A stretch of 64,000 nucleotides of DNA from a virus, in the IMG/VR virus record IMGVR_UViG_3300027754_003462; one strand, 5' to 3'. Under the pieces are notes generated by a model. That model saw only the letters and a list, made by a program, of their open reading frames with translations, made no database searches and was not told where the DNA came from. Shown here in pieces: positions 9,662 to 21,870 of the stretch. The first letter of the stretch is position 1, and every line of letters begins with the position of its first letter. The position numbers were made by a program, and so were the translations under genes.

Positions 9662-10207
9662 ATGGCAGAACAAAAATCACTCTCACGCTCAGAACGTGAA
9701 GCCGTCATCAAAGATAAAGCAGGATGGGTAATTGTTGTATTCGCGGCATTTTTGGCCATCAACACATATCTAGGCAGTGGCAACTCGGGTCGTATACTAA
9801 ACGACACAATCGAAGCCAACAACACTTGGGCATTTTATCAAGCAAAATCAATCAAGGGTACCTTGGCCGAAATGTCATTAGATGATGCTATGGCTCGTAA
9901 GGATGTGAACAAGGTTGCCTCACTCAGCAAGAAGATTGCACGTTATGAATCAGATCCTGTAACAGGCGAAGGCAAGAAAGAACTTATGGCCAAGGCTCGT
10001 GCTCTAGAAGCAGATCGTGCTGTGGCCAAACAACGTAGCCCTTGGTATACATTTGCTGGATCACTATTCCAGATTGCCATTGTGTTATTAAGTGCTAGTA
10101 TATTGGCAGTGAACAATCGCTTGTATACAGCCAGTTTGTACGTAGGCGGCATCGCAATGGTGCTGATGAGTCAGGCCATCTGGCTCTGGATTCCCACCTT
10201 GTTTTAA
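9662..10207 (+). CDS. DUF4337-like membrane protein
   Basis: TM, then WAFYQAKSIK motif, coiled coil, and 2 TM (QIAIVLLSASIL). Confidence 0.8.
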   Translation: MAEQKSLSRSEREAVIKDKAGWVIVVFAAFLAINTYLGSGNSGRILNDTIEANNTWAFYQAKSIKGTLAEMSLDDAMARKDVNKVASLSKKIARYESDPVTGEGKKELMAKARALEADRAVAKQRSPWYTFAGSLFQIAIVLLSASILAVNNRLYTASLYVGGIAMVLMSQAIWLWIPTLF

Positions 10208-11446: not shown

Positions 11447-11505
11447 ATCACGTATTTAGAACAGACTTATAAAAACAAAAGCACATACATATGAGTAAAT
11501 AAAAC

Positions 11506-12216
11506 ATGACAGAACTAATCGCAACACTGGTAATGACACACATTACCATCGTCTGTGTCACATTGTATTTGCATCGTGGCCAGGCTCACAAGGGCATTGA
11601 GTTTCATCCCATCCTTGAACATTTCATGAGATTTTGGTTATGGCTCACAACAGGCATGGTAACCCGACAGTGGGTGGCCATACATCGCAAACATCACAGA
11701 TACAGTGATGTGGAAGGTGATCCGCATACCCCTCACGTGTACGGTATATGGCAGGTATTATTCAAAGGAGCAATGTTATATCATGCGGCATCAAAAGATA
11801 AAGTCATGGTTGACGCATACGGTCGTGATACTCCTGCTGATTGGATGGAGCTTCACGTATACCAGCCTTACTCTAGACTTGGCATTGGCATTCTCTTTTT
11901 GCTAGACATCTTGGTGTTTGGTTGGTGGGGAATGTTAATCTGGGGCGTCCAGATGATATGGATTCCATTCTGGGCCGCAGGTGTTATCAATGGACTAGGC
12001 CATTGGATAGGATATAAAAATGGCAAAACTAAAGATCATAGTCGTAATATTAGTCCTTGGGGCATTGTTATTGGCGGCGAAGAGTTGCATAACAACCACC
12101 ACTTGGACCCAGCGAGTGCCCGCCTCTCTAAAAAGTGGTGGGAGTTTGATATAGGCTGGATGTGGCTTGGCCTGTTTAGACTGCTAGGGCTTGCTAGACT
12201 GCGCAATCAAGAGTAA
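11506..12216 (+). CDS. delta-9 acyl-lipid/acyl-CoA fatty acid desaturase (DesA-like)
   Basis: Three His boxes: HRGQAH, HRKHH, HNNHH; EFDIGW. Confidence 0.93.
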   Translation: MTELIATLVMTHITIVCVTLYLHRGQAHKGIEFHPILEHFMRFWLWLTTGMVTRQWVAIHRKHHRYSDVEGDPHTPHVYGIWQVLFKGAMLYHAASKDKVMVDAYGRDTPADWMELHVYQPYSRLGIGILFLLDILVFGWWGMLIWGVQMIWIPFWAAGVINGLGHWIGYKNGKTKDHSRNISPWGIVIGGEELHNNHHLDPASARLSKKWWEFDIGWMWLGLFRLLGLARLRNQE

Positions 12217-12815
12217 TCTTGGCGAAGGTCAGGGTCAATCAACTGGCCCTGCATCAAGTATATGGGGCTCTTGCGATAGATCCATACATCGTGAAACGGA
12301 TCAGTTATGATCTTTAGACACCAGACCAGTGCAACTCGTCGGCTTTGCAGTGCGGTCAGTTGAATCATTCTAAACACAACACCGGCCGCACCCAGCCATA
12401 ACCATCCCATGCCCACGCGATTCACAAATGTCATTGGGTCGTTGTCGGGAATCAGCAGGTTCATTAGTTCAGCATCAAAGTACGCCAGCACAGGCACAGC
12501 CGCCCAACAGGTCAGTAGCACACGTTTGCGTTTCAAGTTAAATCCAATTTTGATTTTTTCTTTGTGGTCAAATGTGGCCTTGTTGTATTCATCGTAGCCG
12601 TGCGGCTCAAAGAAAAAATGTCCGGCTTGACGAGTGGTCATGGCAATCAACCATGCAATGTATGCACTCACAACAGGATCAATGAACAGATACACATAGG
12701 CAATCAAGAAACTTGTGGCTGAAATCAAGTGCAAGAATTGATTGATTCTGCTATGATGATAGTAACGATGGTCGTCCCAGCGTTGCTCGCGAAGTGTTTG
12801 TAGTATTTCTTTCAT
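12207..12815 (-). CDS. Mpo1/DUF962-like membrane protein
   Basis: YYHHSRINQFLH and RQAGHFFFE motifs; several TM segments. Confidence 0.65.
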   Translation of the reverse strand: MKEILQTLREQRWDDHRYYHHSRINQFLHLISATSFLIAYVYLFIDPVVSAYIAWLIAMTTRQAGHFFFEPHGYDEYNKATFDHKEKIKIGFNLKRKRVLLTCWAAVPVLAYFDAELMNLLIPDNDPMTFVNRVGMGWLWLGAAGVVFRMIQLTALQSRRVALVWCLKIITDPFHDVWIYRKSPIYLMQGQLIDPDLRQDYS

Positions 12816-12834
12816 TGAATTTCCTTTGGTTTAT

Positions 12835-13848
12835 TTACTTGGTCCACAAGTGGTTGGGAGTGAGATTGTCTCGGAATATGTGCCAGGCTCGATCCCATGA
12901 CCAACGTTGACTGCCTGACCATACTTGTTGTCTATTTAAGAACAAACAATCAGTGACTGCTTGCTTCAAGTCTTCATTCATACAACCTGTAACGCCTTCA
13001 TCAATCACATCCTCTGGACCTTGACAAGGGTAGGCTGCAACAGGTGTTCCGCAGGCCATGGCTTCTATCATCACAATGCCAAATGTTTCCCAGCGTGACG
13101 GAAACACAAACACATCTGCCATGGCATAGTATTGGGCCAGTTCTGCGCCTGTTTTGAATCCCACAAACTCCACATCAGGATACTGCTTCCGGTATTTTTC
13201 TAGCATGGGACCATCACCTACCATGATCTTGCGACTGTTGGGATATTGTAATTCAAAAAAGTCTTCCAGGTTCTTTTCTTTGCTCACACGGGCAACACAC
13301 AACAGCACCTTGACATTGTCTTGTCGATCTCGATAGCCAGGATGAAATATCTCACGGTCCACACCACGTGTCCAGGAAATGACTTCTCCGTCAAAGCCAT
13401 GCGCTTGTAACTCCGCTACCATTGAGTCAGTTGTGGTCAACACCTTGCCCGAGTGCTTGTGAAACCAACGCACAAATCGCCAGGTTATAAATTCAGGAAT
13501 GCCAAATAACTTTTTAAGTCCCTCAGGAAACTTAGTATGATAAGCGGTATTGTGACAAATATCACCCAGTGAAAGATATGCTCTAGCCCACAAACCCAGA
13601 GGACCTTCTGTGGCGATGTGGATATAATCCGGACGTATCTCCTCAATCTTCGCGCCCAGGTTACGCGGATAGGCAATCTTGACTTCGTGGTACCTAGGAC
13701 AATCAATGTAGCGGAACCGCCCGGGATCAATATAATCAACATGATAACCATCGCGAATTGCATGAGCCTCAATGTTCTTGTAAGTGGTGACCACACCATT
13801 AATTTGATCCGGTAAGTTGTCCGTTATTATCAGTATCTTCTTTGTCAT
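12835..13848 (-). CDS. GT4 glycosyltransferase, Agt-like (diacylglycerol glycosyltransferase)
   Basis: QINGVVTT, HIATEGPLG, YHTKFPE, RVSKEKN, FPSRWETFGIVMIEAMACG; directly downstream of PlcP-like gene. Confidence 0.85.
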   Translation of the reverse strand: MTKKILIITDNLPDQINGVVTTYKNIEAHAIRDGYHVDYIDPGRFRYIDCPRYHEVKIAYPRNLGAKIEEIRPDYIHIATEGPLGLWARAYLSLGDICHNTAYHTKFPEGLKKLFGIPEFITWRFVRWFHKHSGKVLTTTDSMVAELQAHGFDGEVISWTRGVDREIFHPGYRDRQDNVKVLLCVARVSKEKNLEDFFELQYPNSRKIMVGDGPMLEKYRKQYPDVEFVGFKTGAELAQYYAMADVFVFPSRWETFGIVMIEAMACGTPVAAYPCQGPEDVIDEGVTGCMNEDLKQAVTDCLFLNRQQVWSGSQRWSWDRAWHIFRDNLTPNHLWTK

Positions 13849-14593
13849 GTTCTTGAGTCCATGTTACAATCTCCCAGTGCCCGTCGTGATGTTCTACCAA
13901 GGCGGTACATGATTCTACCCAGTCGCCATCATTCATGTATACAACGCCGTTGATCTCTTTTATTTCTGCGTGATGGATGTGACCACAGACCACACCGTCA
14001 AATCCTCTTTTTTTGCAGTAGGCTGCAAGATTCCGTTCAAAGTGAAATATGAAGTCAATGGCTTTTTTGACCCTATGCTTAAGAAACTGGCTAAGACTCC
14101 AGTAACCAAAACCCATACGATGGCGGATCCAATTAAATCTGCTATTAAGCCCCAGGATAAAATCATATGCTTTGTCTCCTAAAAAACTCAACCACGGTGC
14201 CAGGCGGGTAATACCATCAAATAGGTCGCCGTGCACCACAAGGTAATGTTTACCATCTGCACCCACATGTTCGCATTGATTACATATTTCCACAGTACCG
14301 AATGTGGCGGCATATGGTATCATGGGACGCAGGAATTCGTCATGATTTCCAGCCACGTATACAACCCTAGTGCCACGCTTGGCATGACCAAGAACCCTGC
14401 GAACCACATTGGTATGGCTTTGTTTCCATCTCAATCTATTTTGTTGCATCTTCCAGGCGTCAATGATGTCGCCTACTAGATATAAGGTATTGCAGGAGTT
14501 GTGCTTTAAGAAATTGTTTAGTTCTTCTGCCTTGCAGTCTCTTGTGCCAAGATGGACGTCACTAATAAAAATACTGCGGTATGTTTTTGGCAT
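13799..14593 (-). CDS. PlcP-like metallophosphoesterase (phospholipase C; often annotated UDP-2,3-diacylglucosamine hydrolase)
   Basis: SDVHLG, VGDIID, GNHD, HGD, CGHIH, NDGDWVESCTAL. Confidence 0.85.
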   Translation of the reverse strand: MPKTYRSIFISDVHLGTRDCKAEELNNFLKHNSCNTLYLVGDIIDAWKMQQNRLRWKQSHTNVVRRVLGHAKRGTRVVYVAGNHDEFLRPMIPYAATFGTVEICNQCEHVGADGKHYLVVHGDLFDGITRLAPWLSFLGDKAYDFILGLNSRFNWIRHRMGFGYWSLSQFLKHRVKKAIDFIFHFERNLAAYCKKRGFDGVVCGHIHHAEIKEINGVVYMNDGDWVESCTALVEHHDGHWEIVTWTQEHDKEDTDNNGQLTGSN

Positions 14594-14615
14594 CTAGTAT
14601 TTAGGCAGAATTGTG

Positions 14616-15281
14616 TTACTGTTTTGTTACAAACATTTGGTCCACAAAATCCAACAACAGTGTATGGTGTTGACCCCTATGATATCGACCCCGCATCCAG
14701 GAGTAACTGTCGTACCAGAATTGTTCACTTTCAGGATGACATCCTATTAGACCAATGTTGTTTTGTATAATGGCCATGGCATCACCATTCATGTATGTGG
14801 CCATGGTCTTAAACTTGGTCCGGTCGCCTACCAGGGCACAGCCATCGTAAAAGAACATGTTCCAAGGCTCGATGTTCCCCCAACGATCGCGCCATAGCAC
14901 AGGCAAGTTCTTGGCATGTGGTCTATGTGTGTCTGTACCCGGACGTCGGATATACTGTACTGCATCCACACCATCTAATATATCAAGATATTCACTTCCG
15001 GCCCAGTAGGCGCCCATACAGATGCCCAGGTATCTGCCACCACGAGCAAGAAATTGTTGCACACGTTCGGCATTGTGTTTGAAAAGTGATTCAAATGAAT
15101 CAGCATCACCAAAGCCGCCGGGCACAGCAATCATGTCCACGTCATCAAAGAACACATCTTCTAGTTTGTTTTTACCAAATATTTTGAATTTGTAATGATC
15201 ACCCAAGGCTCGCATGAGCCCATTACCGCTTTGCACACTGCATTTGGGGTCGTGCAAGAACAGGGCTATGGTGGGTTTCAT
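14616..15281 (-). CDS. BPL-N / class I glutamine-amidotransferase-like domain protein
   Basis: VPGG, YLGICMGAY nucleophile elbow, CHPE. Confidence 0.8.
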   Translation of the reverse strand: MKPTIALFLHDPKCSVQSGNGLMRALGDHYKFKIFGKNKLEDVFFDDVDMIAVPGGFGDADSFESLFKHNAERVQQFLARGGRYLGICMGAYWAGSEYLDILDGVDAVQYIRRPGTDTHRPHAKNLPVLWRDRWGNIEPWNMFFYDGCALVGDRTKFKTMATYMNGDAMAIIQNNIGLIGCHPESEQFWYDSYSWMRGRYHRGQHHTLLLDFVDQMFVTKQ

Positions 15282-15322
15282 TCAGTATTTAGTGACCGTG
15301 ATTTTTTGACAGTTTTATGACA

Positions 15323-15350
15323 CAAAAAAATACCCCAAATTTTGGGGTAT
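15323..15350 (-). terminator. intrinsic terminator
   Basis: ATACCCCAAA-AA-TTTGGGGTAT followed by a T-run on - strand. Confidence 0.8.
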
Positions 15351-15408
15351 CTACTGGTTACGAGTTCCAGCGCCACTCTATCATTGTGGTCGGTTGCATT
15401 TATTTATA
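15323..15408 (-). ncRNA. candidate small late RNA (TATAAATA promoter, two hairpins, terminator)
   Basis: CCAC-N9-GUGG and CUGG-N9-CCAG hairpins between a promoter and a terminator; also holds a 13-codon ORF without SD. Confidence 0.4.
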
Positions 15409-15429: not shown

Positions 15430-15732
15430 TTACTGAGATAGCATCCTGATCAGGCCCACCGTATCGATACTGACTAACAGGATGTAGTTGGCCAACATAC
15501 CAAACGATTGACGAGTCCAACTAGCCCAAGCATACATAGCACAACCACTAATCCATATAGGGTAAAGTACCACGAGAGGGGGATTAGGTACAGTGGCAGC
15601 CATCGTAATACTGCACCCAATAGACACAGCCCAAGCCAGTACTTCCACGAAAAACCTAAGTGGGTTAGTTTTGTAGTCACTTCGAATCCAATCAAAGATG
15701 TTGAGAAATATATTGTTCATACAGTTGTTCAC
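15430..15732 (-). CDS. small membrane protein (about 3 TM)
   Basis: Hydrophobic ORF overlapping the uvsE 3' end. Confidence 0.75.
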   Translation of the reverse strand: MNNCMNNIFLNIFDWIRSDYKTNPLRFFVEVLAWAVSIGCSITMAATVPNPPLVVLYPIWISGCAMYAWASWTRQSFGMLANYILLVSIDTVGLIRMLSQ

Positions 15733-16723
15733 TTGCCAAGTTTTTGCCCTTGGCTTCTACTTGTATATCAAACTGATCACGAAAGCCTAAGACCCATGCG
15801 TTCACAGCCCAATTCCAGCAGAAGTCACTGTGTGCCCGGAGTTTCTGCTTTTTATAACCTCTAGCAAGAAGTTCAGCAAGGTCTGGTCGAACTCCTGGAT
15901 CATGGTCGACAAGAATATCTTCGCGGCTAGTACTAAAATGCATTGCAGGGCGAACGCCGCGCCAAGAGTCAATAACCCTACTTGTACGAACGTCCTGCGG
16001 TTCGATGTATTCGCCTGAGTTGATCCAGTGGTGGTGTACATCCAACACAAGAGCCACATGCTGAGCCACAGCCAAAGTAGTGTCCAATCCATTTGTCATC
16101 TCGTCATTCTCGATGGTTATCAAGTTCCTGGCCTCTGGAGTGAGGCGACCCAAGGTCTTCAGGAATTTAGCGGGACCACCTTTACCCGATAAATGCACAT
16201 TAATCTTAAATCCATGATCATGCCAGGTGGCACCGTAGCCCATCCATCTAGCCATGTCTGCATGATACTCAAACTCTAACACACTGCGTTCTACAATCTC
16301 GTCGCTTTCACTAGCAAGTACACAAAACTGTCCAGGATGGAAACTCAGTCGCACACCCAGGCGTCTTGCAGTTTCGCCTATGGGAGCAAATATCTTCTCA
16401 CAGTGACCTTGAATCTCTGTTCGTTGCCACCAGTCAATCCAATTGGCTTCAGTGTAGCCCTGTAGCATTTCACTGCCCAGACGTACCATTCTACGACCTT
16501 CAGGCAGGGTGGCCACACGCTCAATCATTTTCACAGCCGCCGACGTGTTGTGATTCATGATATCCCATTGGCGTTGTTCCGCTTCGTCTTTGTGTTCGCG
16601 AAGCCACCTCATGGTAGTTGATCTGCCGTTTAGTTCACGGTCCTTTGCATTGACTTTCATGCCCCCTGTTTCCGAGGGATCATTGAGCCATTTGCAACAA
16701 AAGCCAATTTGGGGTGTAGTCAT
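15692..16723 (-). CDS. uvsE: UV DNA damage endonuclease (UvsE/UVDE)
   Basis: RLSFHPGQF, INVH, IENDE, LDVHHH, HFS, AHSD, VEAKGK. Confidence 0.92.
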   Translation of the reverse strand: MTTPQIGFCCKWLNDPSETGGMKVNAKDRELNGRSTTMRWLREHKDEAEQRQWDIMNHNTSAAVKMIERVATLPEGRRMVRLGSEMLQGYTEANWIDWWQRTEIQGHCEKIFAPIGETARRLGVRLSFHPGQFCVLASESDEIVERSVLEFEYHADMARWMGYGATWHDHGFKINVHLSGKGGPAKFLKTLGRLTPEARNLITIENDEMTNGLDTTLAVAQHVALVLDVHHHWINSGEYIEPQDVRTSRVIDSWRGVRPAMHFSTSREDILVDHDPGVRPDLAELLARGYKKQKLRAHSDFCWNWAVNAWVLGFRDQFDIQVEAKGKNLASEQLYEQYISQHL

Positions 16724-16754
16724 GCTGTAATTATACAGCATTTGAAATTAATAG

Positions 16755-17666: not shown

Positions 17667-18181
17667 AAATGTCCTGTTATTTGCAAGGTATATCTTGGTT
17701 CGAGACCCATGTTGGCGGCCATGTGTGGCGCATCGTAACACCATTCGACCACATCACCTGCTTGCCAATCAACCTTGGCTGTGCTGTTGTATTCTGCATA
17801 ATGCCCGGGTTTCCAGTCTTCCAAGAACACAATGGCTCTGCGTATGCGTTGTTCTTGGCCGTTGAGGTTGAACAGATCAACATAACGCAAATACAAATCA
17901 CTGTGAGTGGGAAGTATAGTACCAGTACTCATTCTATAGTAACTGGTCCCAATATCTTTCCAGCCTAGTTCGGTGTAGATGTTAACAAACTGTTGATTCC
18001 ATGTGGGTTGTGGACTGCGCATGTCGCACATGTCCCCAGTGAACCGGTTGGCATAACCTTGTGACATCCAATTTTCAATGCTGACAATGTCATTGAACGA
18101 TTCATTAACATAGTTGAGTTGTTTAAACTCTTCATTCCAAAATTTAGGAATATGATATCTAAGAATTTCGTGTGTTGCCAT
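17663..18181 (-). CDS. 2OG-Fe(II)/cupin oxygenase-like protein
   Basis: PTHSD (HxD), PH.AAN.G..PRYTLQITG. Confidence 0.75.
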   Translation of the reverse strand: MATHEILRYHIPKFWNEEFKQLNYVNESFNDIVSIENWMSQGYANRFTGDMCDMRSPQPTWNQQFVNIYTELGWKDIGTSYYRMSTGTILPTHSDLYLRYVDLFNLNGQEQRIRRAIVFLEDWKPGHYAEYNSTAKVDWQAGDVVEWCYDAPHMAANMGLEPRYTLQITGHL

Positions 18182-19397
18182 ATGGTATTACTGTTAAGCC
18201 TTCGATTGCAGGTAGTTTGCGCCACGGATCAACAATGATACTGTTTCGTGGAATTGCGCAGTATGGTAATGTATCCGTTTGACCTTCGATATAGTTATAA
18301 GTTATCTTACGATTGTGTGCCCATAATATAACCGCGGGTCCTGCCAGTTCTGAAATAACTTCAGCGGGATCGTCTGCCAATGGGTCTAGATATCTCACAT
18401 CATGTCCTGCTTGTTTAACATAGTGTCCTACCAATGTAGAATACGATCCAATACAATACGGTACATCTGGTTTGTATGCTTTGCCATGAATCACAATACT
18501 CATGCCGTGTGGTTTGGCCTGCTCAATCAGGAACATGGCCAAGTTTTTGGCTTGAATTTCTCTAGCATGCATCACAGTGTCAAACAAGTCGTAACCAAGG
18601 TCATATTCTTTGGCCAACCAACGCAGGGCAATGTTGTCACGTGGATGACATGCGCCTGCATCACCCATGCCCGCGGTCATGTACTTAGGACCCATGATAC
18701 GCATAGTGCTACGTGACAGCGCATCAGTGACCATATCAACATTGATATGGCCAATGCGCATGGCAAAATCTTGAATCATGTTGACCAAGCCAACCTTGGC
18801 TGAAATAAATGTATTATAGAAAATCTTGATTGCTTCGCACTCGTCCCAGGTGCCAATTTCGTAGCGTGGATCGTTTTGCATCACAGTATCGTACAGTGCT
18901 CGAAGTTCGCCGGCTAGTGCATTGGGATTACCATCTTCGGTGCCAATCATGATCATTTCTGGATTGACCATGTCCCATTTGACCGAGCCCATGGCAATCA
19001 GGTAAGGGTTATATAAAAACTGGTGTTTGCGAGCCAATCTAGGAACAAACTCCCTGCGAGTGGTTCCTGGTAACACTGTAGAGATCAGTACAACTTTTTT
19101 GGATTCTCGAGCATGGTTATTGATTTTGTTGATGGCATCAATCACAGCATCATATCCAAAGTCACGGGGTTCCAAGTGAGAACTTGGTACTGCACCGTCG
19201 TAGCCTTCAGCATGTGGAGTAGGTACAGCAATAAAGATCCACTCACTTTCATTCACAAGTTCATCAATATCACAAACTTTTACTGAGTCGCTTGCACGTG
19301 GGTAAATATCGTAGCCTCTGACTTCATGCTTCTCTGCCATGACTTCAGCACAATCAAGACCCAGTTTACCGATCCCAATAAATCCAATTTTTTCCAT
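18159..19397 (-). CDS. ugd: UDP-glucose/GDP-mannose dehydrogenase family
   Basis: GIGKLG, AVPTP, STVLPGT, IKIFYNTF, GACHPRD, AYKP. Confidence 0.88.
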   Translation of the reverse strand: MEKIGFIGIGKLGLDCAEVMAEKHEVRGYDIYPRASDSVKVCDIDELVNESEWIFIAVPTPHAEGYDGAVPSSHLEPRDFGYDAVIDAINKINNHARESKKVVLISTVLPGTTRREFVPRLARKHQFLYNPYLIAMGSVKWDMVNPEMIMIGTEDGNPNALAGELRALYDTVMQNDPRYEIGTWDECEAIKIFYNTFISAKVGLVNMIQDFAMRIGHINVDMVTDALSRSTMRIMGPKYMTAGMGDAGACHPRDNIALRWLAKEYDLGYDLFDTVMHAREIQAKNLAMFLIEQAKPHGMSIVIHGKAYKPDVPYCIGSYSTLVGHYVKQAGHDVRYLDPLADDPAEVISELAGPAVILWAHNRKITYNYIEGQTDTLPYCAIPRNSIIVDPWRKLPAIEGLTVIPYGNTRNS

Positions 19398-21078: not shown

Positions 21079-21870
21079 ATGAGTTTAGCATTTGATTTAA
21101 TTTCTGATTTACATATAGAAACCTGGCCCGGCGAGTTTGATTGGACGTACCAGGCCACGAGTCCTGTGTGCATTGTAGCCGGTGACGTTACCCGAGATCC
21201 GGACATTCTGGTGCGCATCCTTAAACACCTGGGCAAGTGTTATCAGGCTGTATTTTACGTTGATGGCAACGATGAACATTATACACAACTGGAGGATTTG
21301 GGGCATAGTTACAGTGATCTCACTCGACGCTTGCGACGTATTCCCAATGTGGTTTACCTCCAGGATAATGTGGTCATAGTAGACGGCGTGGCCATTTTGG
21401 GCACCAACGGTTGGTGGGGGTTTGACTTTGATCTTGGTATCGACCCTGAACAGGCTGCACAATGGACTCAAGAAAGATATCACATAACTGAAAATGCTAC
21501 CAAAGGCATAGCCAGAATGAGCAATACTGATGCCACATACATGATATCTAGTGTGGCTAAATTACAAAATCATAAAGATGTTCGAAAGATTGTGATGGTT
21601 ACTCATACTGTACCTGATCCTGCACTGATAGCCCATGACATAGATCTAGACGGTACCATGAGATTCAACACCATGGGCAACAGACTCATGATGCAGGCCA
21701 TGGCAGCCGATACTGAAAACAAACTGCATACCTGGTGCTTTGGCCACTATCACGGTAGTGTGGATCAGGTCCGATCAGGTATACGTTTTGTAAACAACTG
21801 TCGCGGTAGAGGCAATACAACTTACGCCAAGCCAGTGTATTACCCTCAACGTATTGTGGTAGAGTTTTAA
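21079..21870 (+). CDS. calcineurin-like metallophosphoesterase
   Basis: SDLH, AGD, GNDE, THT, FGHYH. Confidence 0.88.
   Translation: MSLAFDLISDLHIETWPGEFDWTYQATSPVCIVAGDVTRDPDILVRILKHLGKCYQAVFYVDGNDEHYTQLEDLGHSYSDLTRRLRRIPNVVYLQDNVVIVDGVAILGTNGWWGFDFDLGIDPEQAAQWTQERYHITENATKGIARMSNTDATYMISSVAKLQNHKDVRKIVMVTHTVPDPALIAHDIDLDGTMRFNTMGNRLMMQAMAADTENKLHTWCFGHYHGSVDQVRSGIRFVNNCRGRGNTTYAKPVYYPQRIVVEF

What the first reader, a model, noticed from the sequence alone, without database searches (positions are those of the whole stretch)
11506..14593. Phage-encoded membrane-lipid remodelling module: PlcP + Agt + Mpo1-like + desaturase
Seen: four adjacent lipid-related genes. They are a metallophosphoesterase with GNHD, overlapping a GT4 glycosyltransferase, then a DUF962/Mpo1-like membrane protein, converging on a delta-9 desaturase. 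TAAATA motifs precede plcP, the Mpo1-like gene and the desaturase. Known: in Sinorhizobium, SAR11 and roseobacters, PlcP (His in GNHD, versus Arg in GNRD for LpxH) releases diacylglycerol from phospholipids. A neighbouring Agt converts it to phosphorus-free glycolipids under P starvation. Yeast Mpo1 alpha-oxidises 2-hydroxy fatty acids. Inference: the phage may mine host phospholipids for phosphate to make DNA, while refilling the membrane with glycolipid and tuning acyl chains. I do not know of this pathway being characterised as a phage auxiliary module.
Basis: partly seen in the sequence, partly recalled or inferred. Interest (0 to 1): 0.88.

Follow-up and report, generated by a model that had tools for sequence, protein, structure and literature searches.

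The report
Phage PlcP-Agt membrane lipid-swap island
A very large freshwater phage carries intact copies of the two bacterial enzymes that remove the phosphate head from membrane lipids and put a sugar in its place, next to a shortened fatty-acid desaturase and an unknown membrane protein. The virus can therefore probably draw phosphorus from its host's membrane, which I found in no published description of a virus.

Summary
The four genes exist as described and all are intact. 13799-14593(-) is a PlcP-type metallophosphoesterase with GNHD. It sits in the PlcP clade, far from true LpxH, and scores 46 bits on the LpxH model, whose cut-off is 134. 12835-13848(-) overlaps it by 50 nt and is the orthologue of the Agt glycosyltransferase that follows plcP in 53-54 of 80 bacterial loci.

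The window is a T4-like jumbo phage from fresh water, not host DNA. At least 571 IMG/VR contigs carry the gene. In 85 related loci plcP is always followed by a glycosyltransferase, either GT4 or GT2.

An 11-bp-periodic tandem repeat that resembles a Pho box, set 11 nt before TAAATA, precedes plcP (52/86) and phage pstS (7/7). It precedes almost no other tracked gene.

The desaturase is a conserved short DesA core. The "Mpo1-like" gene is a sub-threshold DUF962 relative of unknown function. Both are variable cargo of the same island (17/85 and 6/85 loci), not a fixed four-gene module.

Best reading: phosphate-stress lipid renovation run by the phage. Enzyme activities and regulation are inferred, not shown.

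This scan has already reported the plcP-agt pair on many other phage genomes. I found no paper describing it; virus surveys list the gene as "lpxH".

The parts
13799..14593 (-). plcP: PlcP-type metallophospholipase C candidate (264 aa, GNHD)
   Evidence: Pfam Metallophos. The LpxH equivalog models score 46.4 against a cut-off of 134 and 34.5 against 190. It falls in the PlcP clade, separated from LpxH by a branch of 4.46 with 100% support. GNHD is present in 86/86 PlcP-like rows and GNRD in 4/4 LpxH rows. dN/dS is 0.04-0.08.
12835..13848 (-). agt: GT4 diacylglycerol glycosyltransferase candidate (337 aa), overlapping plcP by 50 nt
   Evidence: GT4 domains. It is 36-46% identical over its full length to the GT4 directly downstream of plcP in 53-54/80 bacterial loci. 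Its best genome-wide hit is the plcP-adjacent gene in 4 of 5 genomes and the second-best hit in the fifth.
14615..14631 (-). Tandem direct repeat TGTAAC-N5-AGTAAC (11-bp period), resembling a Pho box, 11 nt upstream of the TAAATA before plcP
   Evidence: It is the only exact match to TGTMAY-N5-WGTMAY in the 64 kb on either strand. The same motif lies upstream of 35/86 (strict) or 52/86 (one substitution allowed) phage plcP genes and 7/7 phage pstS genes. It is absent upstream of 0/46 GT4, 0/38 GT2 and 0/17 desaturase genes.
14598..14603 (-). TAAATA (-10-like or late-promoter-like element) 4 nt before the plcP ATG; no Shine-Dalgarno sequence in between
   Evidence: The spacer from the tandem repeat is 11 nt, which is the commonest value in 59 instances.
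12207..12815 (-). DUF962/Mpo1-like membrane protein (202 aa), function unknown
   Evidence: PF06127 scores 20.5 bits, below the cut-off of 24. A cellular homologue scores 24.5. hhalign against bona fide DUF962 gives E = 6e-4 over the N-terminal 61 columns, which share the H...N...H and GHFxFE motifs. The AF2 model has pLDDT 78. Its ESM Atlas neighbours are its own DUF962-named family, plus a 734-aa aminotransferase fusion.
12832..12837 (-). TAAATA 16 nt before the Mpo1-like ATG, overlapping the agt stop codon; AAGGA lies between it and the ATG
11506..12216 (+). Short DesA-type membrane fatty-acid desaturase (236 aa)
   Evidence: NF049918 DesA family scores 385.7 bits over model positions 11-241 of 385. 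It is 54-57% identical to cellular DesA proteins of 393-400 aa. All metal-ligand boxes are present: HRGQAH, HRKHH, NGLGH and HNNHH. Fourteen phage copies are 233-238 aa long.
11496..11501 (+). TAAATA 4 nt before the desaturase ATG
14616..15281 (-). BPL_N / class I glutamine-amidotransferase-like protein (221 aa), directly upstream of plcP on the same strand; the commonest accessory neighbour
   Evidence: PF09825 scores 37.7 bits and GATase 23.2 bits. GICMG and CHPE motifs are read from the DNA. It lies within 9 kb of plcP in 29/85 phage loci.
15306..15323 (-). GTGTCATAAAACTGTCAA: matches the E. coli Pho box consensus at 16 of 18 positions, 25 nt before the BPL_N-like ATG, just after a terminator
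   Evidence: It is the only match with up to 3 mismatches in the window, although 0.45 are expected by chance. It is not conserved in related loci.
15328..15352 (-). Intrinsic-terminator-like hairpin plus T run, which closes the upstream unit
18159..19397 (-). Divergent nucleotide-sugar dehydrogenase (possible source of UDP-glucuronate); its link to the module is unproven
   Evidence: Pfam UDPG_MGDP_dh N-terminal and central domains. TIGR03026 scores 137.5 bits against a cut-off of 189.8. It belongs to the conserved backbone block ugd-o172-o329-uvdE upstream of the island in 5 related loci.

Best explanation
The window is part of a T4-like jumbo phage of fresh water. Between two backbone blocks (uvdE and its upstream neighbours on one side, o257/DUF4337 on the other) it carries a variable island of auxiliary genes.

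The fixed core of the island is a translationally coupled pair:
- PlcP, which would cleave host glycerophospholipids into diacylglycerol plus a phospho-head group.
- Agt, a GT4 enzyme that would glycosylate the diacylglycerol into a phosphorus-free glycolipid.

The pair would keep the membrane intact while releasing lipid phosphorus for phage DNA synthesis.

The pair sits behind a composite promoter: an 11-bp-periodic tandem repeat, then 11 nt, then TAAATA. Related phages use the same promoter for pstS. The most likely reading is control by the host PhoB under phosphate starvation.

The short DesA-type desaturase and the DUF962-like membrane protein are optional cargo of the same island. They have their own TAAATA elements. 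The desaturase probably re-tunes acyl-chain saturation of the altered membrane. The role of the DUF962-like protein is unknown.

What is shown:
- gene identity and family placement;
- orthology to the bacterial plcP-agt pair;
- location on a phage;
- wide distribution;
- purifying selection;
- the motif shared by plcP and pstS.

What is inferred:
- the enzyme activities;
- the sugar donor;
- PhoB control;
- the benefit to the phage.
For: PlcP, not LpxH:
- The LpxH equivalog model NF003743 gives 46.4 bits to the window protein. True LpxH proteins score 218-334 bits and the PlcP paralogues in the same bacterial genomes score 40-55 bits.
- GNHD against GNRD separates the two groups perfectly.
- In the tree, LpxH is split from 86 PlcP-like rows with 100% support. 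The jumbo-phage proteins form one clade that is sister to 79 proteobacterial PlcP proteins.
- The window protein is 50-58% identical to bacterial PlcP, including Pseudomonas copies. Characterised PlcP proteins are only 46-47% identical to each other (PMC8528852).

Agt:
- A colinear GT4 follows plcP in 53-54/80 bacterial loci.
- Genome-wide best hits fall on the plcP-adjacent gene at 232-278 bits, against at most 112 bits for unrelated GT4 genes.

Phage origin:
- The replicative helicase is 47% identical to those of PA5oct and Atu_ph07.
- The window also encodes RNR, primase, ligase and a tailspike-like protein.
- At least 571 IMG/VR contigs carry a relative, and the best 80 are 79-90% identical.
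- The nearest cellular homologue is at most 58% identical.
- The stretch occurs in 7 freshwater runs at 63% or more of its sampled words. All four runs that were laid cover all of it.

Fixed pair: 85/85 phage loci with room downstream have a glycosyltransferase directly after plcP on the same strand.

Link to phosphorus:
- pstS, a true PstS at 425 bits, is adjacent and co-oriented in L098, L099 and others.
- Pelagibacter phage Mosig has its PlcP-like gene next to its pstS-type gene.
- The tandem repeat is specific to plcP and pstS and sits at a rigid spacing of 11 or 21-22 nt from TAAATA.
- Pseudomonas plcP promoters show CTGTCAT repeats with the same 11-bp period before their -10 element.
- Host PhoB control of phage pstS is an established precedent in cyanophages (PMC10976474).

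Selection: dN/dS is 0.04-0.19.
Against: - No activity, lipid or expression data exist for any phage copy.
- I could not place the characterised proteins themselves in the tree (S. meliloti, MED193, SAR11 or PAO1). Only unnamed or species-level orthologues were available.
- The half-site is mostly TGTAAY, not the canonical TGTCAY. The host and its Pho box are unknown.
- The strict motif is absent upstream of most bacterial plcP loci sampled.
- PMC10976474 warns that Pho boxes predicted in phages are unreliable. The repeat could instead bind a phage regulator.
- Related phages are not independent samples.
- PlcP releases a phospho-head group, not phosphate, and no phosphatase was identified in the island.
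- TAAATA lies only 4 nt from the ATG. The transcript would therefore be leaderless, which is untested.
- The desaturase and the DUF962-like gene lack the repeat and are absent from most relatives, so their functional tie to the pair is weak.
Confidence: 0.72

Rival explanations
1. The pair does renovate lipids, but the pay-off is a change in membrane or cell-surface properties rather than phosphorus supply. Possible benefits are superinfection exclusion, altered receptor display, membrane stability or fluidity over a long jumbo-phage cycle in cold lake water, or escape from grazers.
For: - A desaturase, which adjusts membrane fluidity, is recurrent cargo of the same island (17/85 loci).
- Lipid renovation changes membrane proteins and interactions with predators in bacteria (PMC9804370; PMC9457565, listed).
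- No phosphatase that would free phosphate from the released head groups was found in the island.
Against: - The tandem repeat is shared specifically with pstS.
- pstS is physically adjacent to plcP in several relatives and in phage Mosig.
- The desaturase does not carry the repeat.
Confidence: 0.15
2. The gene is LpxH, as databases label it. On this reading it is a lipid A (LPS) biosynthesis auxiliary gene, and the GT4 acts on LPS or a capsule.
For: - JGI names the homologues 'UDP-2,3-diacylglucosamine pyrophosphatase LpxH'.
- GenBank does the same for phages Mosig and S-SRM01.
- AMG surveys list lpxH under LPS biosynthesis.
- The only solved-structure hit is LpxH, at E = 7e-4.
Against: - The protein scores 46 bits against a cut-off of 134.
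- It has GNHD, not GNRD.
- A long, fully supported branch separates it from LpxH.
- Bacteria that hold this family also hold a separate true LpxH, or, as in the two alphaproteobacterial genomes searched, no LpxH-scoring gene at all.
- The partner GT4 is orthologous to Agt.
Confidence: 0.03
3. The segment is host DNA joined to a phage contig by misassembly, or it belongs to a cellular genome.
For: All four genes have bacterial homologues at 45-58% identity.
Against: - Homologues of 79-94% identity lie on hundreds of viral contigs, between the same phage backbone genes.
- No cellular homologue exceeds 58% identity.
- GC content is even across the region, 0.44-0.47.
- Phage-type TAAATA elements precede the genes.
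- Four freshwater runs cover the whole 12 kb.
Confidence: 0.02
4. The tandem repeat is the site of a phage-encoded regulator, comparable to a T4 middle-promoter activator box, and defines a small phage regulon unrelated to host phosphate sensing.
For: - The half-site TGTAAY differs from canonical TGTCAY at one position in about 90% of unique instances.
- The repeat is always paired with the phage's own TAAATA element.
- A few copies precede other, unidentified ORFs.
- A search with the E. coli consensus finds almost nothing in relatives.
Against: - The genes it precedes are exactly the two classic Pho-regulon types, pstS and plcP.
- The 11-bp period and the position replacing a -35 element match PhoB promoters.
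- Some phage copies read TGTCAY.
Confidence: 0.2

Closest known systems
Bacterial PlcP-Agt lipid renovation pathway (P. aeruginosa PA3219/PA3218 Agt1 and PA0842 Agt2; S. meliloti and Phaeobacter MED193 PlcP; SAR11)
   Same: - The same two families in the same order on the same strand.
- GNHD metallophosphoesterase motifs.
- A GT4 with E-x7-E.
- 50-58% (PlcP) and 36-46% (Agt) identity to the bacterial pair, which is within the spread among characterised members.
- Tandem repeats with an 11-bp period upstream.
   Different: - It is encoded by a virus.
- The two genes overlap by 32-50 nt.
- The promoter uses TGTAAY half-sites fused to a phage TAAATA element, with almost no leader.
- In about 45% of related phages the GT4 is replaced by an unrelated GT2, which I did not find next to any of 80 bacterial plcP genes.
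LpxH (UDP-2,3-diacylglucosamine diphosphatase)
   Same: The same calcineurin-like superfamily and overall length, with a weak sequence match.
   Different: It has GNRD in place of GNHD, fails both LpxH equivalog cut-offs, forms a separate clade, and has a different gene neighbourhood.
Phage Pho-regulon auxiliary genes (cyanophage pstS and phoA under host PhoBR; PMC10976474)
   Same: A phage gene for coping with phosphorus shortage, apparently wired to a host-type phosphate-starvation site. pstS is adjacent in relatives.
   Different: Those genes import or release external phosphate. This pair would free phosphorus held inside the cell, in the host's own membrane.
Pelagibacter phage Mosig 'putative UDP-2,3-diacylglucosamine hydrolase' and Synechococcus phage S-SRM01 'UDP-2,3-diacylglucosamine diphosphatase'
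   Same: These are the only isolated phages among 50,697 records with a homologue (47.7% and 36.5% identity). The Mosig gene is next to its pstS-type gene and falls on the PlcP side of the tree.
   Different: Neither has an annotated glycosyltransferase next to the gene. Both are smaller T4-like phages of the family Kyanoviridae with marine or cyanobacterial hosts. The S-SRM01 protein did not match my GN[HR]D pattern.
Pseudomonas-type DesA acyl-lipid desaturase (NCBIfam NF049918), and cyanophage lipid desaturases (PMC5776448)
   Same: 54-57% identity to cellular DesA, with all His boxes kept. Phage-borne desaturases as such are known.
   Different: The phage form ends about 155 aa early, and this short form is conserved in at least 14 phage loci. 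No isolated phage has this desaturase type.
Yeast Mpo1 / DUF962 (PF06127)
   Same: The N-terminal ~60 residues share the His/Asn/His and GHFxFE pattern. Language-model and structural neighbours carry DUF962 names.
   Different: The match is below Pfam's cut-off. The C-terminal 130 aa are specific to this family (invariant TDPFHD). Cellular members are linked or fused to a class III aminotransferase and lie next to a PS-decarboxylase-like gene. Nothing indicates 2-hydroxy fatty-acid oxidation.

Membership tests
PlcP (metallophospholipase C of lipid renovation) | Calcineurin-like metallophosphoesterase motifs (DxH, GD, GNHD/E, H, GHxH) | tested here: met
   All motifs are present and invariant across 40 homologues.
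PlcP (metallophospholipase C of lipid renovation) | His in GNHD where LpxH has Arg | tested here: met
   GNHD is present in the window and in 86/86 PlcP-like rows. GNRD is present in 4/4 LpxH rows.
PlcP (metallophospholipase C of lipid renovation) | Groups with PlcP, not LpxH, in a phylogeny | tested here: met
   The split has 100% support. Caveat: the experimentally characterised proteins themselves could not be fetched. Pseudomonas and other plcP-agt loci stood in for them.
PlcP (metallophospholipase C of lipid renovation) | Operon partner is a diacylglycerol glycosyltransferase | tested here: met
   An Agt-type GT4 overlaps it. This holds in 85/85 phage loci with room downstream.
PlcP (metallophospholipase C of lipid renovation) | Phospholipase C activity on PE, PG or PC that yields diacylglycerol | not testable with these tools
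   Requires an enzyme assay or lipidomics.
PlcP (metallophospholipase C of lipid renovation) | Induction by phosphate starvation through PhoB (Pho box) | tested here: inconclusive
   The tandem repeat is shared with pstS, but its half-site is non-canonical, the host is unknown and no RNA data exist.
LpxH | Reaches the curated equivalog score (NF003743 134 bits; TIGR01854 190 bits) | tested here: not met
   It scores 46.4 and 34.5 bits. True LpxH proteins score 218-334 bits.
Agt (GT4 glycolipid synthase of lipid renovation) | GT4 two-domain architecture with E-x7-E | tested here: met
Agt (GT4 glycolipid synthase of lipid renovation) | Orthology to the GT4 encoded directly downstream of bacterial plcP | tested here: met
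Agt (GT4 glycolipid synthase of lipid renovation) | Makes MGDG and/or GADG from diacylglycerol and a UDP-sugar | not testable with these tools
   No equivalog model reaches its cut-off and no close solved structure exists.
DesA-family acyl-lipid desaturase (NF049918) | Curated full-length score of at least 400 bits | tested here: not met
   It scores 385.7 bits and matches only model positions 11-241 of 385.
DesA-family acyl-lipid desaturase (NF049918) | Complete set of di-iron His ligands (HxxxxH, HxxHH, NxxxH, HxxHH) | tested here: met
Mpo1-like / DUF962 (PF06127) | Reaches the Pfam gathering score of 24 bits | tested here: not met
   It scores 20.5 bits. Cellular homologues score 23.0-24.5 bits. 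The profile-profile comparison gives E = 6e-4 with probability 29%.
T4-type late promoter | TATAAATA-like element just upstream of late genes | tested here: inconclusive
   TAAATA is strongly placed before gene starts. The full TATAAATA occurs only twice, and timing of expression is unknown.

The most novel reading that the evidence does not exclude
Hundreds of freshwater jumbo phages run a host-PhoB-triggered programme that uses up the host's own membrane phospholipids for phosphorus. It works through a viral PlcP plus either of two unrelated glycosyltransferases, with optional viral acyl-chain desaturation. This would be a new class of auxiliary metabolism: turnover of a cell's internal structural phosphorus. 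Virus surveys have filed it as the LPS gene 'lpxH'.
Probability: 0.5. Interest if true: 0.82.

Novelty: new variant of a known kind. Interest (0 to 1): 0.72.

Why it matters
Phosphorus often limits phage production in lakes and oceans. Known viral answers act on external phosphate (pstS, phoA).

Membrane phospholipid is one of the largest phosphorus stores inside a cell. By my own rough textbook figures, an E. coli-sized cell holds about 2x10^7 phospholipids. A 350-kb double-stranded genome needs about 7x10^5 phosphorus atoms. The lipid pool would therefore cover tens of genomes.

A virus that converts that pool while keeping the membrane sealed with glycolipid would change several things:
- how viral phosphorus budgets, burst size under phosphorus stress and lake lipid biomarkers are read;
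- the annotation of a widespread viral 'lpxH' gene, which would need correcting;
- the tools available: a minimal DesA core and a second, GT2-type partner for PlcP that could be tested as enzymes.

Tried and rejected
- No whole genome is held for the window.
- No RNA holder is listed among the public runs, so expression could not be examined.
- The Logan contigs that were laid are short unitigs. No single piece spans the island.
- The E. coli Pho box consensus with up to 2 mismatches gave only 3 hits in 1.14 Mb of related loci, none conserved.
- The strict tandem motif is upstream of only 1/80 bacterial plcP loci. A looser half-site search found 11-bp repeats mainly in Pseudomonas.
- My first hhalign run against DUF962 used wrongly framed ORFs and was discarded. 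It was redone.
- Foldseek of the DUF962-like model against the PDB gave nothing at E <= 0.001.
- The BPL_N-like protein has no hit among solved structures.
- A 214-aa ORF family preceded by the tandem motif in 5 relatives is Ala/Val/Glu-rich, has no Pfam match and may be a wrong frame.
- The characterised PlcP and Agt sequences (S. meliloti, MED193, HTCC7211, PAO1) could not be fetched by name.
- I looked for a paper on phage-encoded PlcP/Agt with six searches and found none.
- No complex prediction was run, because nothing in the report depends on a binding claim.

Full report
**What is there**

Region 11506-14593 holds four intact ORFs.

- **plcP, 13799-14593(-), 264 aa.** It is a calcineurin-like metallophosphoesterase with DVHLG, GDIID, GNHDE, HGD and GHIHH.
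- **GT4, 12835-13848(-), 337 aa.** It is a two-domain GT4 glycosyltransferase with an E-x7-E motif. Its start lies 50 nt inside the end of plcP. Relatives keep a 32-50 nt overlap.
- **Mpo1-like, 12207-12815(-), 202 aa.** It is a helical membrane protein whose PF06127 match (20.5 bits) is below the cut-off of 24.
- **Desaturase, 11506-12216(+), 236 aa.** It converges on the Mpo1-like gene with a 10-nt overlap of the 3' ends.

The hexamer is not over-represented in the window (37 copies against 35 expected). It is strongly placed, though: 18 of 37 copies lie within 40 nt upstream of an ORF start, against 1.6 expected.

**Is it a phage?**

- The window encodes RNR large and small subunits, primase, an ATP-dependent ligase, a tailspike-like protein, and a DnaB-type helicase that is 47% identical to those of jumbo phages PA5oct and Atu_ph07.
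- Notes on sibling windows of the same genome describe virion and glycan modules.
- Proteins 80-94% identical to this PlcP are very common in metagenomes. They sit on contigs of up to ~360 kb with phage-like gene content.
- IMG/VR holds at least 571 viral contigs with a relative.
- The closest cellular PlcP is only 50-58% identical.
- GC content is even across the region.
- The stretch is found in seven freshwater metagenome runs at 63% or more of its sampled words. Four runs that were laid cover every bin of a 12-kb span, with visible strain diversity.

Host contamination or misassembly is therefore very unlikely.

**PlcP or LpxH?**

Databases call this family LpxH. Four tests say otherwise.

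- **Model scores.** The LpxH equivalog model gives the window protein 46.4 bits against a cut-off of 134. In bacterial genomes that hold a homologue, true LpxH genes score 218-334 bits and the PlcP-like paralogue 40-55 bits. The two alphaproteobacterial genomes searched (Azospirillum, Sphingopyxis) have only the paralogue.
- **Motif.** All 86 PlcP-like sequences carry GNHD and all four LpxH sequences carry GNRD.
- **Tree.** In a maximum-likelihood tree, LpxH is separated from the PlcP-like set by a branch of 4.46 with 100% support. The jumbo-phage proteins form one clade that is sister to 79 proteobacterial proteins. The Pelagibacter phage Mosig protein branches deeper on the same side.
- **Identity range.** Characterised PlcP proteins are themselves only 46-47% identical to each other (PMC8528852), so 50-58% is well within the family.

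Limit: I could not fetch the characterised proteins by name. The placement rests on plcP-agt loci of Pseudomonas, Azospirillum, Chromobacterium and others.

**The partner**

In 53-54 of 80 bacterial loci, a GT4 that is 36-46% identical to the window's GT4 over its full length lies directly downstream of plcP on the same strand.

I searched five whole genomes with the window's GT4. The plcP-adjacent gene was the best hit in four and a close second in the fifth (232-278 bits). Unrelated GT4 genes scored at most 112 bits. This is the Agt orthologue.

In P. aeruginosa, Agt1 makes MGDG from UDP-glucose and Agt2 makes GADG from UDP-glucuronate. The sugar used by the phage enzyme cannot be read from the sequence.

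A divergent nucleotide-sugar dehydrogenase lies 3.6 kb upstream (18159-19397). It belongs to a conserved backbone block, and the genome has other glycan systems. Its link to the pair is therefore open.

**Core and cargo**

I mapped 86 phage loci, counting the window itself: 80 from IMG/VR and 5 from metagenomes.

| Gene near plcP | Loci |
|---|---|
| GT4 directly downstream, same strand | 46 |
| GT2 directly downstream, same strand | 38 |
| No glycosyltransferase (contig ends within 180 nt) | 2 |
| BPL_N / glutamine-amidotransferase-like gene | 29 |
| Desaturase | 17 |
| pstS | 7 |
| Mpo1-like gene | 6 |
| Porin | 4 |

The accessory genes lie on either side of plcP and on either strand. The backbone blocks ugd-o172-o329-uvdE and o257/DUF4337 flank the island. 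L102 matches the window's gene order but lacks the Mpo1-like gene and the desaturase. In L006 the Mpo1-like gene is inverted.

So the unit is plcP plus a glycosyltransferase. All four are nevertheless under purifying selection in phages, with dN/dS 0.04-0.19.

**Regulation**

Upstream of plcP in most relatives, and of pstS in all seven cases, lies a tandem repeat TGTAAY-N5-TGTAAY (sometimes TGTCAY). It is followed by 11 nt, or 21-22 nt when a third repeat is present, and then TAAATA.

- With the strict pattern, 45 of 62 occurrences in 2.28 Mb of strand sequence lie within 80 nt upstream of plcP or pstS.
- None lies upstream of the 13 other gene families I tracked.
- Allowing one substitution, the counts are 52/86 plcP, 7/7 pstS, 0/46 GT4, 0/38 GT2, 0/17 desaturase and 1/29 BPL_N-like. 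The background rate is 0.012 per 150 nt.
- In the window, the only strict match in 64 kb is at 14615-14631(-), 11 nt before the plcP TAAATA.

The 11-bp period and the position replacing a -35 element are those of PhoB promoters. Pseudomonas plcP promoters show CTGTCAT repeats in the same phase before their -10 element. Host PhoB control of phage pstS is established in cyanophages, although the same paper warns that predicted phage Pho boxes often fail (PMC10976474).

A second site, at 15306-15323(-), matches the E. coli consensus at 16 of 18 positions and heads the BPL_N-like gene just after a terminator. It is a singleton that relatives do not share.

I read the repeat as a probable host Pho box. 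A phage regulator is a live alternative.

**Desaturase**

- The protein is 54-57% identical to DesA-family proteins of gamma- and betaproteobacteria, which are 393-400 aa long.
- It stops right after the last His box.
- Fourteen phage copies are 233-238 aa, so the short form is conserved.
- All ligand motifs are present: HRGQAH, HRKHH, NGLGH and HNNHH.
- No isolated phage among 50,697 records has it. Cyanophage desaturases of another type are known (PMC5776448).
- Delta-9 specificity is an inference from the family name only.

**Mpo1-like protein**

- The family is highly conserved, with invariant QRWDDHRYYH, GHFFFEP and TDPFHD.
- It is only marginally related to DUF962: 20.5-24.5 bits on the Pfam model, and hhalign E = 6e-4 over 61 columns.
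- An AlphaFold model (pLDDT 78) matches only its own DUF962-named family in the ESM Atlas and nothing in the PDB.
- In bacteria the gene lies beside a class III aminotransferase and a PS-decarboxylase-like gene in three of three loci examined. A 734-aa aminotransferase fusion also exists.
- It lies within 5 kb of plcP in 3 of 80 bacterial loci.

Its function is unknown.

**Literature and earlier scan notes**

I found no paper on phage-encoded PlcP or Agt. Two viral surveys list 'lpxH' as an LPS auxiliary gene. One is a Lake Baikal viral metatranscriptome that also lists a desaturase. These entries are probably this family.

After my own analysis I looked up earlier notes of this scan. The plcP-agt pair behind a Pho-type site has already been reported on many other phage genomes, in at least 62 genomes. 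My results agree with those reports.

New points for this window:
- the DesA-type short desaturase and the DUF962-like gene as island cargo;
- the alternation between GT4 and GT2 partners;
- the cellular context of the DUF962-like family.

**Verdict**

This is a new variant of a known kind. The bacterial pathway and the idea of phosphorus-related auxiliary genes are both known. A viral, apparently Pho-wired, system for removing phosphorus from membrane lipids is not published as far as I could find.

Noticed in passing
L002:8907-9626 and 37 other related phage loci (not in the window): In about 45% of related phages the GT4 after plcP is replaced by an unrelated 239-aa GT2. Its best NCBIfam hit is TIGR04283 at 61 bits, far below the cut-off. 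No such GT2 lies next to any of 80 bacterial plcP genes sampled. It may be a non-orthologous, phage-specific diacylglycerol glycosyltransferase.
   Followed up: partly
window 14616-15281 (-): This BPL_N / class I glutamine-amidotransferase-like protein has an apparent Cys-His-Glu triad (GICMG, CHPE). It is the commonest accessory neighbour of plcP (29/85 loci), on either side and either strand. Its role is unknown and it has no solved relative.
   Followed up: partly
window 14594-14603, 15282-15291, 11496-11505 and others: TAAATA lies only 1-8 nt before the ATG of seven genes, with no Shine-Dalgarno sequence (plcP, the BPL_N-like gene and the desaturase each have 4 nt). These transcripts may be leaderless. 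pstS in relatives has a ~25-nt leader with AAGGAG.
   Followed up: partly
L086:5827-9232, L056:7317-10551, L097:61-3142: In bacteria the DUF962-like family forms a conserved trio with a PS-decarboxylase-like gene and a class III aminotransferase. In L056 the trio also sits next to plcP and a UDP-glucose dehydrogenase. The ESM Atlas holds a 734-aa aminotransferase fusion. This looks like an uncharacterised lipid or head-group pathway.
   Followed up: partly
L098:9432-11434 (also L099, L108, L125): Related phages encode an outer-membrane porin (Porin_4, with a signal peptide and a C-terminal Phe) beside pstS and plcP. It may be a phage-borne phosphate porin, and it could hint at the host group.
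   Followed up: no
L001:6717-6866 (Pelagibacter phage Mosig): The 150-nt divergent region between the PlcP-like gene and the pstS-type gene holds several GTTAA(A/G)T repeats. This may be a different, SAR11/cyanobacterial-style Pho box. Mosig has no glycosyltransferase next to its PlcP-like gene.
   Followed up: no
window 21079-21870 (+): A second, unrelated metallophosphoesterase (TIGR03729 'putative phosphoesterase', 40 bits, below the cut-off) is preceded by TAAATA 6 nt before its ATG.
   Followed up: no
L120:9803-10450, L152:3349-4047, L158:4309-4953, L161:9706-10653, L165:4880-5524: A further ORF family downstream of plcP-GT in five relatives is preceded by the same tandem repeat plus TAAATA and a hairpin-forming leader. 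The ORF I extracted is Ala/Val/Glu-rich with no Pfam match, so the true gene or frame is unclear.
   Followed up: partly
window 15692-16741 (-) and 9662-10207 (+): A UvdE-type UV-damage endonuclease (PF03851, 101 bits) and a DUF4337 protein flank the island as conserved backbone genes.
   Followed up: no
L096:4998-5702 (Synechococcus phage S-SRM01): Its 'LpxH' homologue (36.5% identical) did not match a GN[HR]D pattern in my script and was left out of the tree. It sits among psbA, hli and ferredoxin genes.
   Followed up: no
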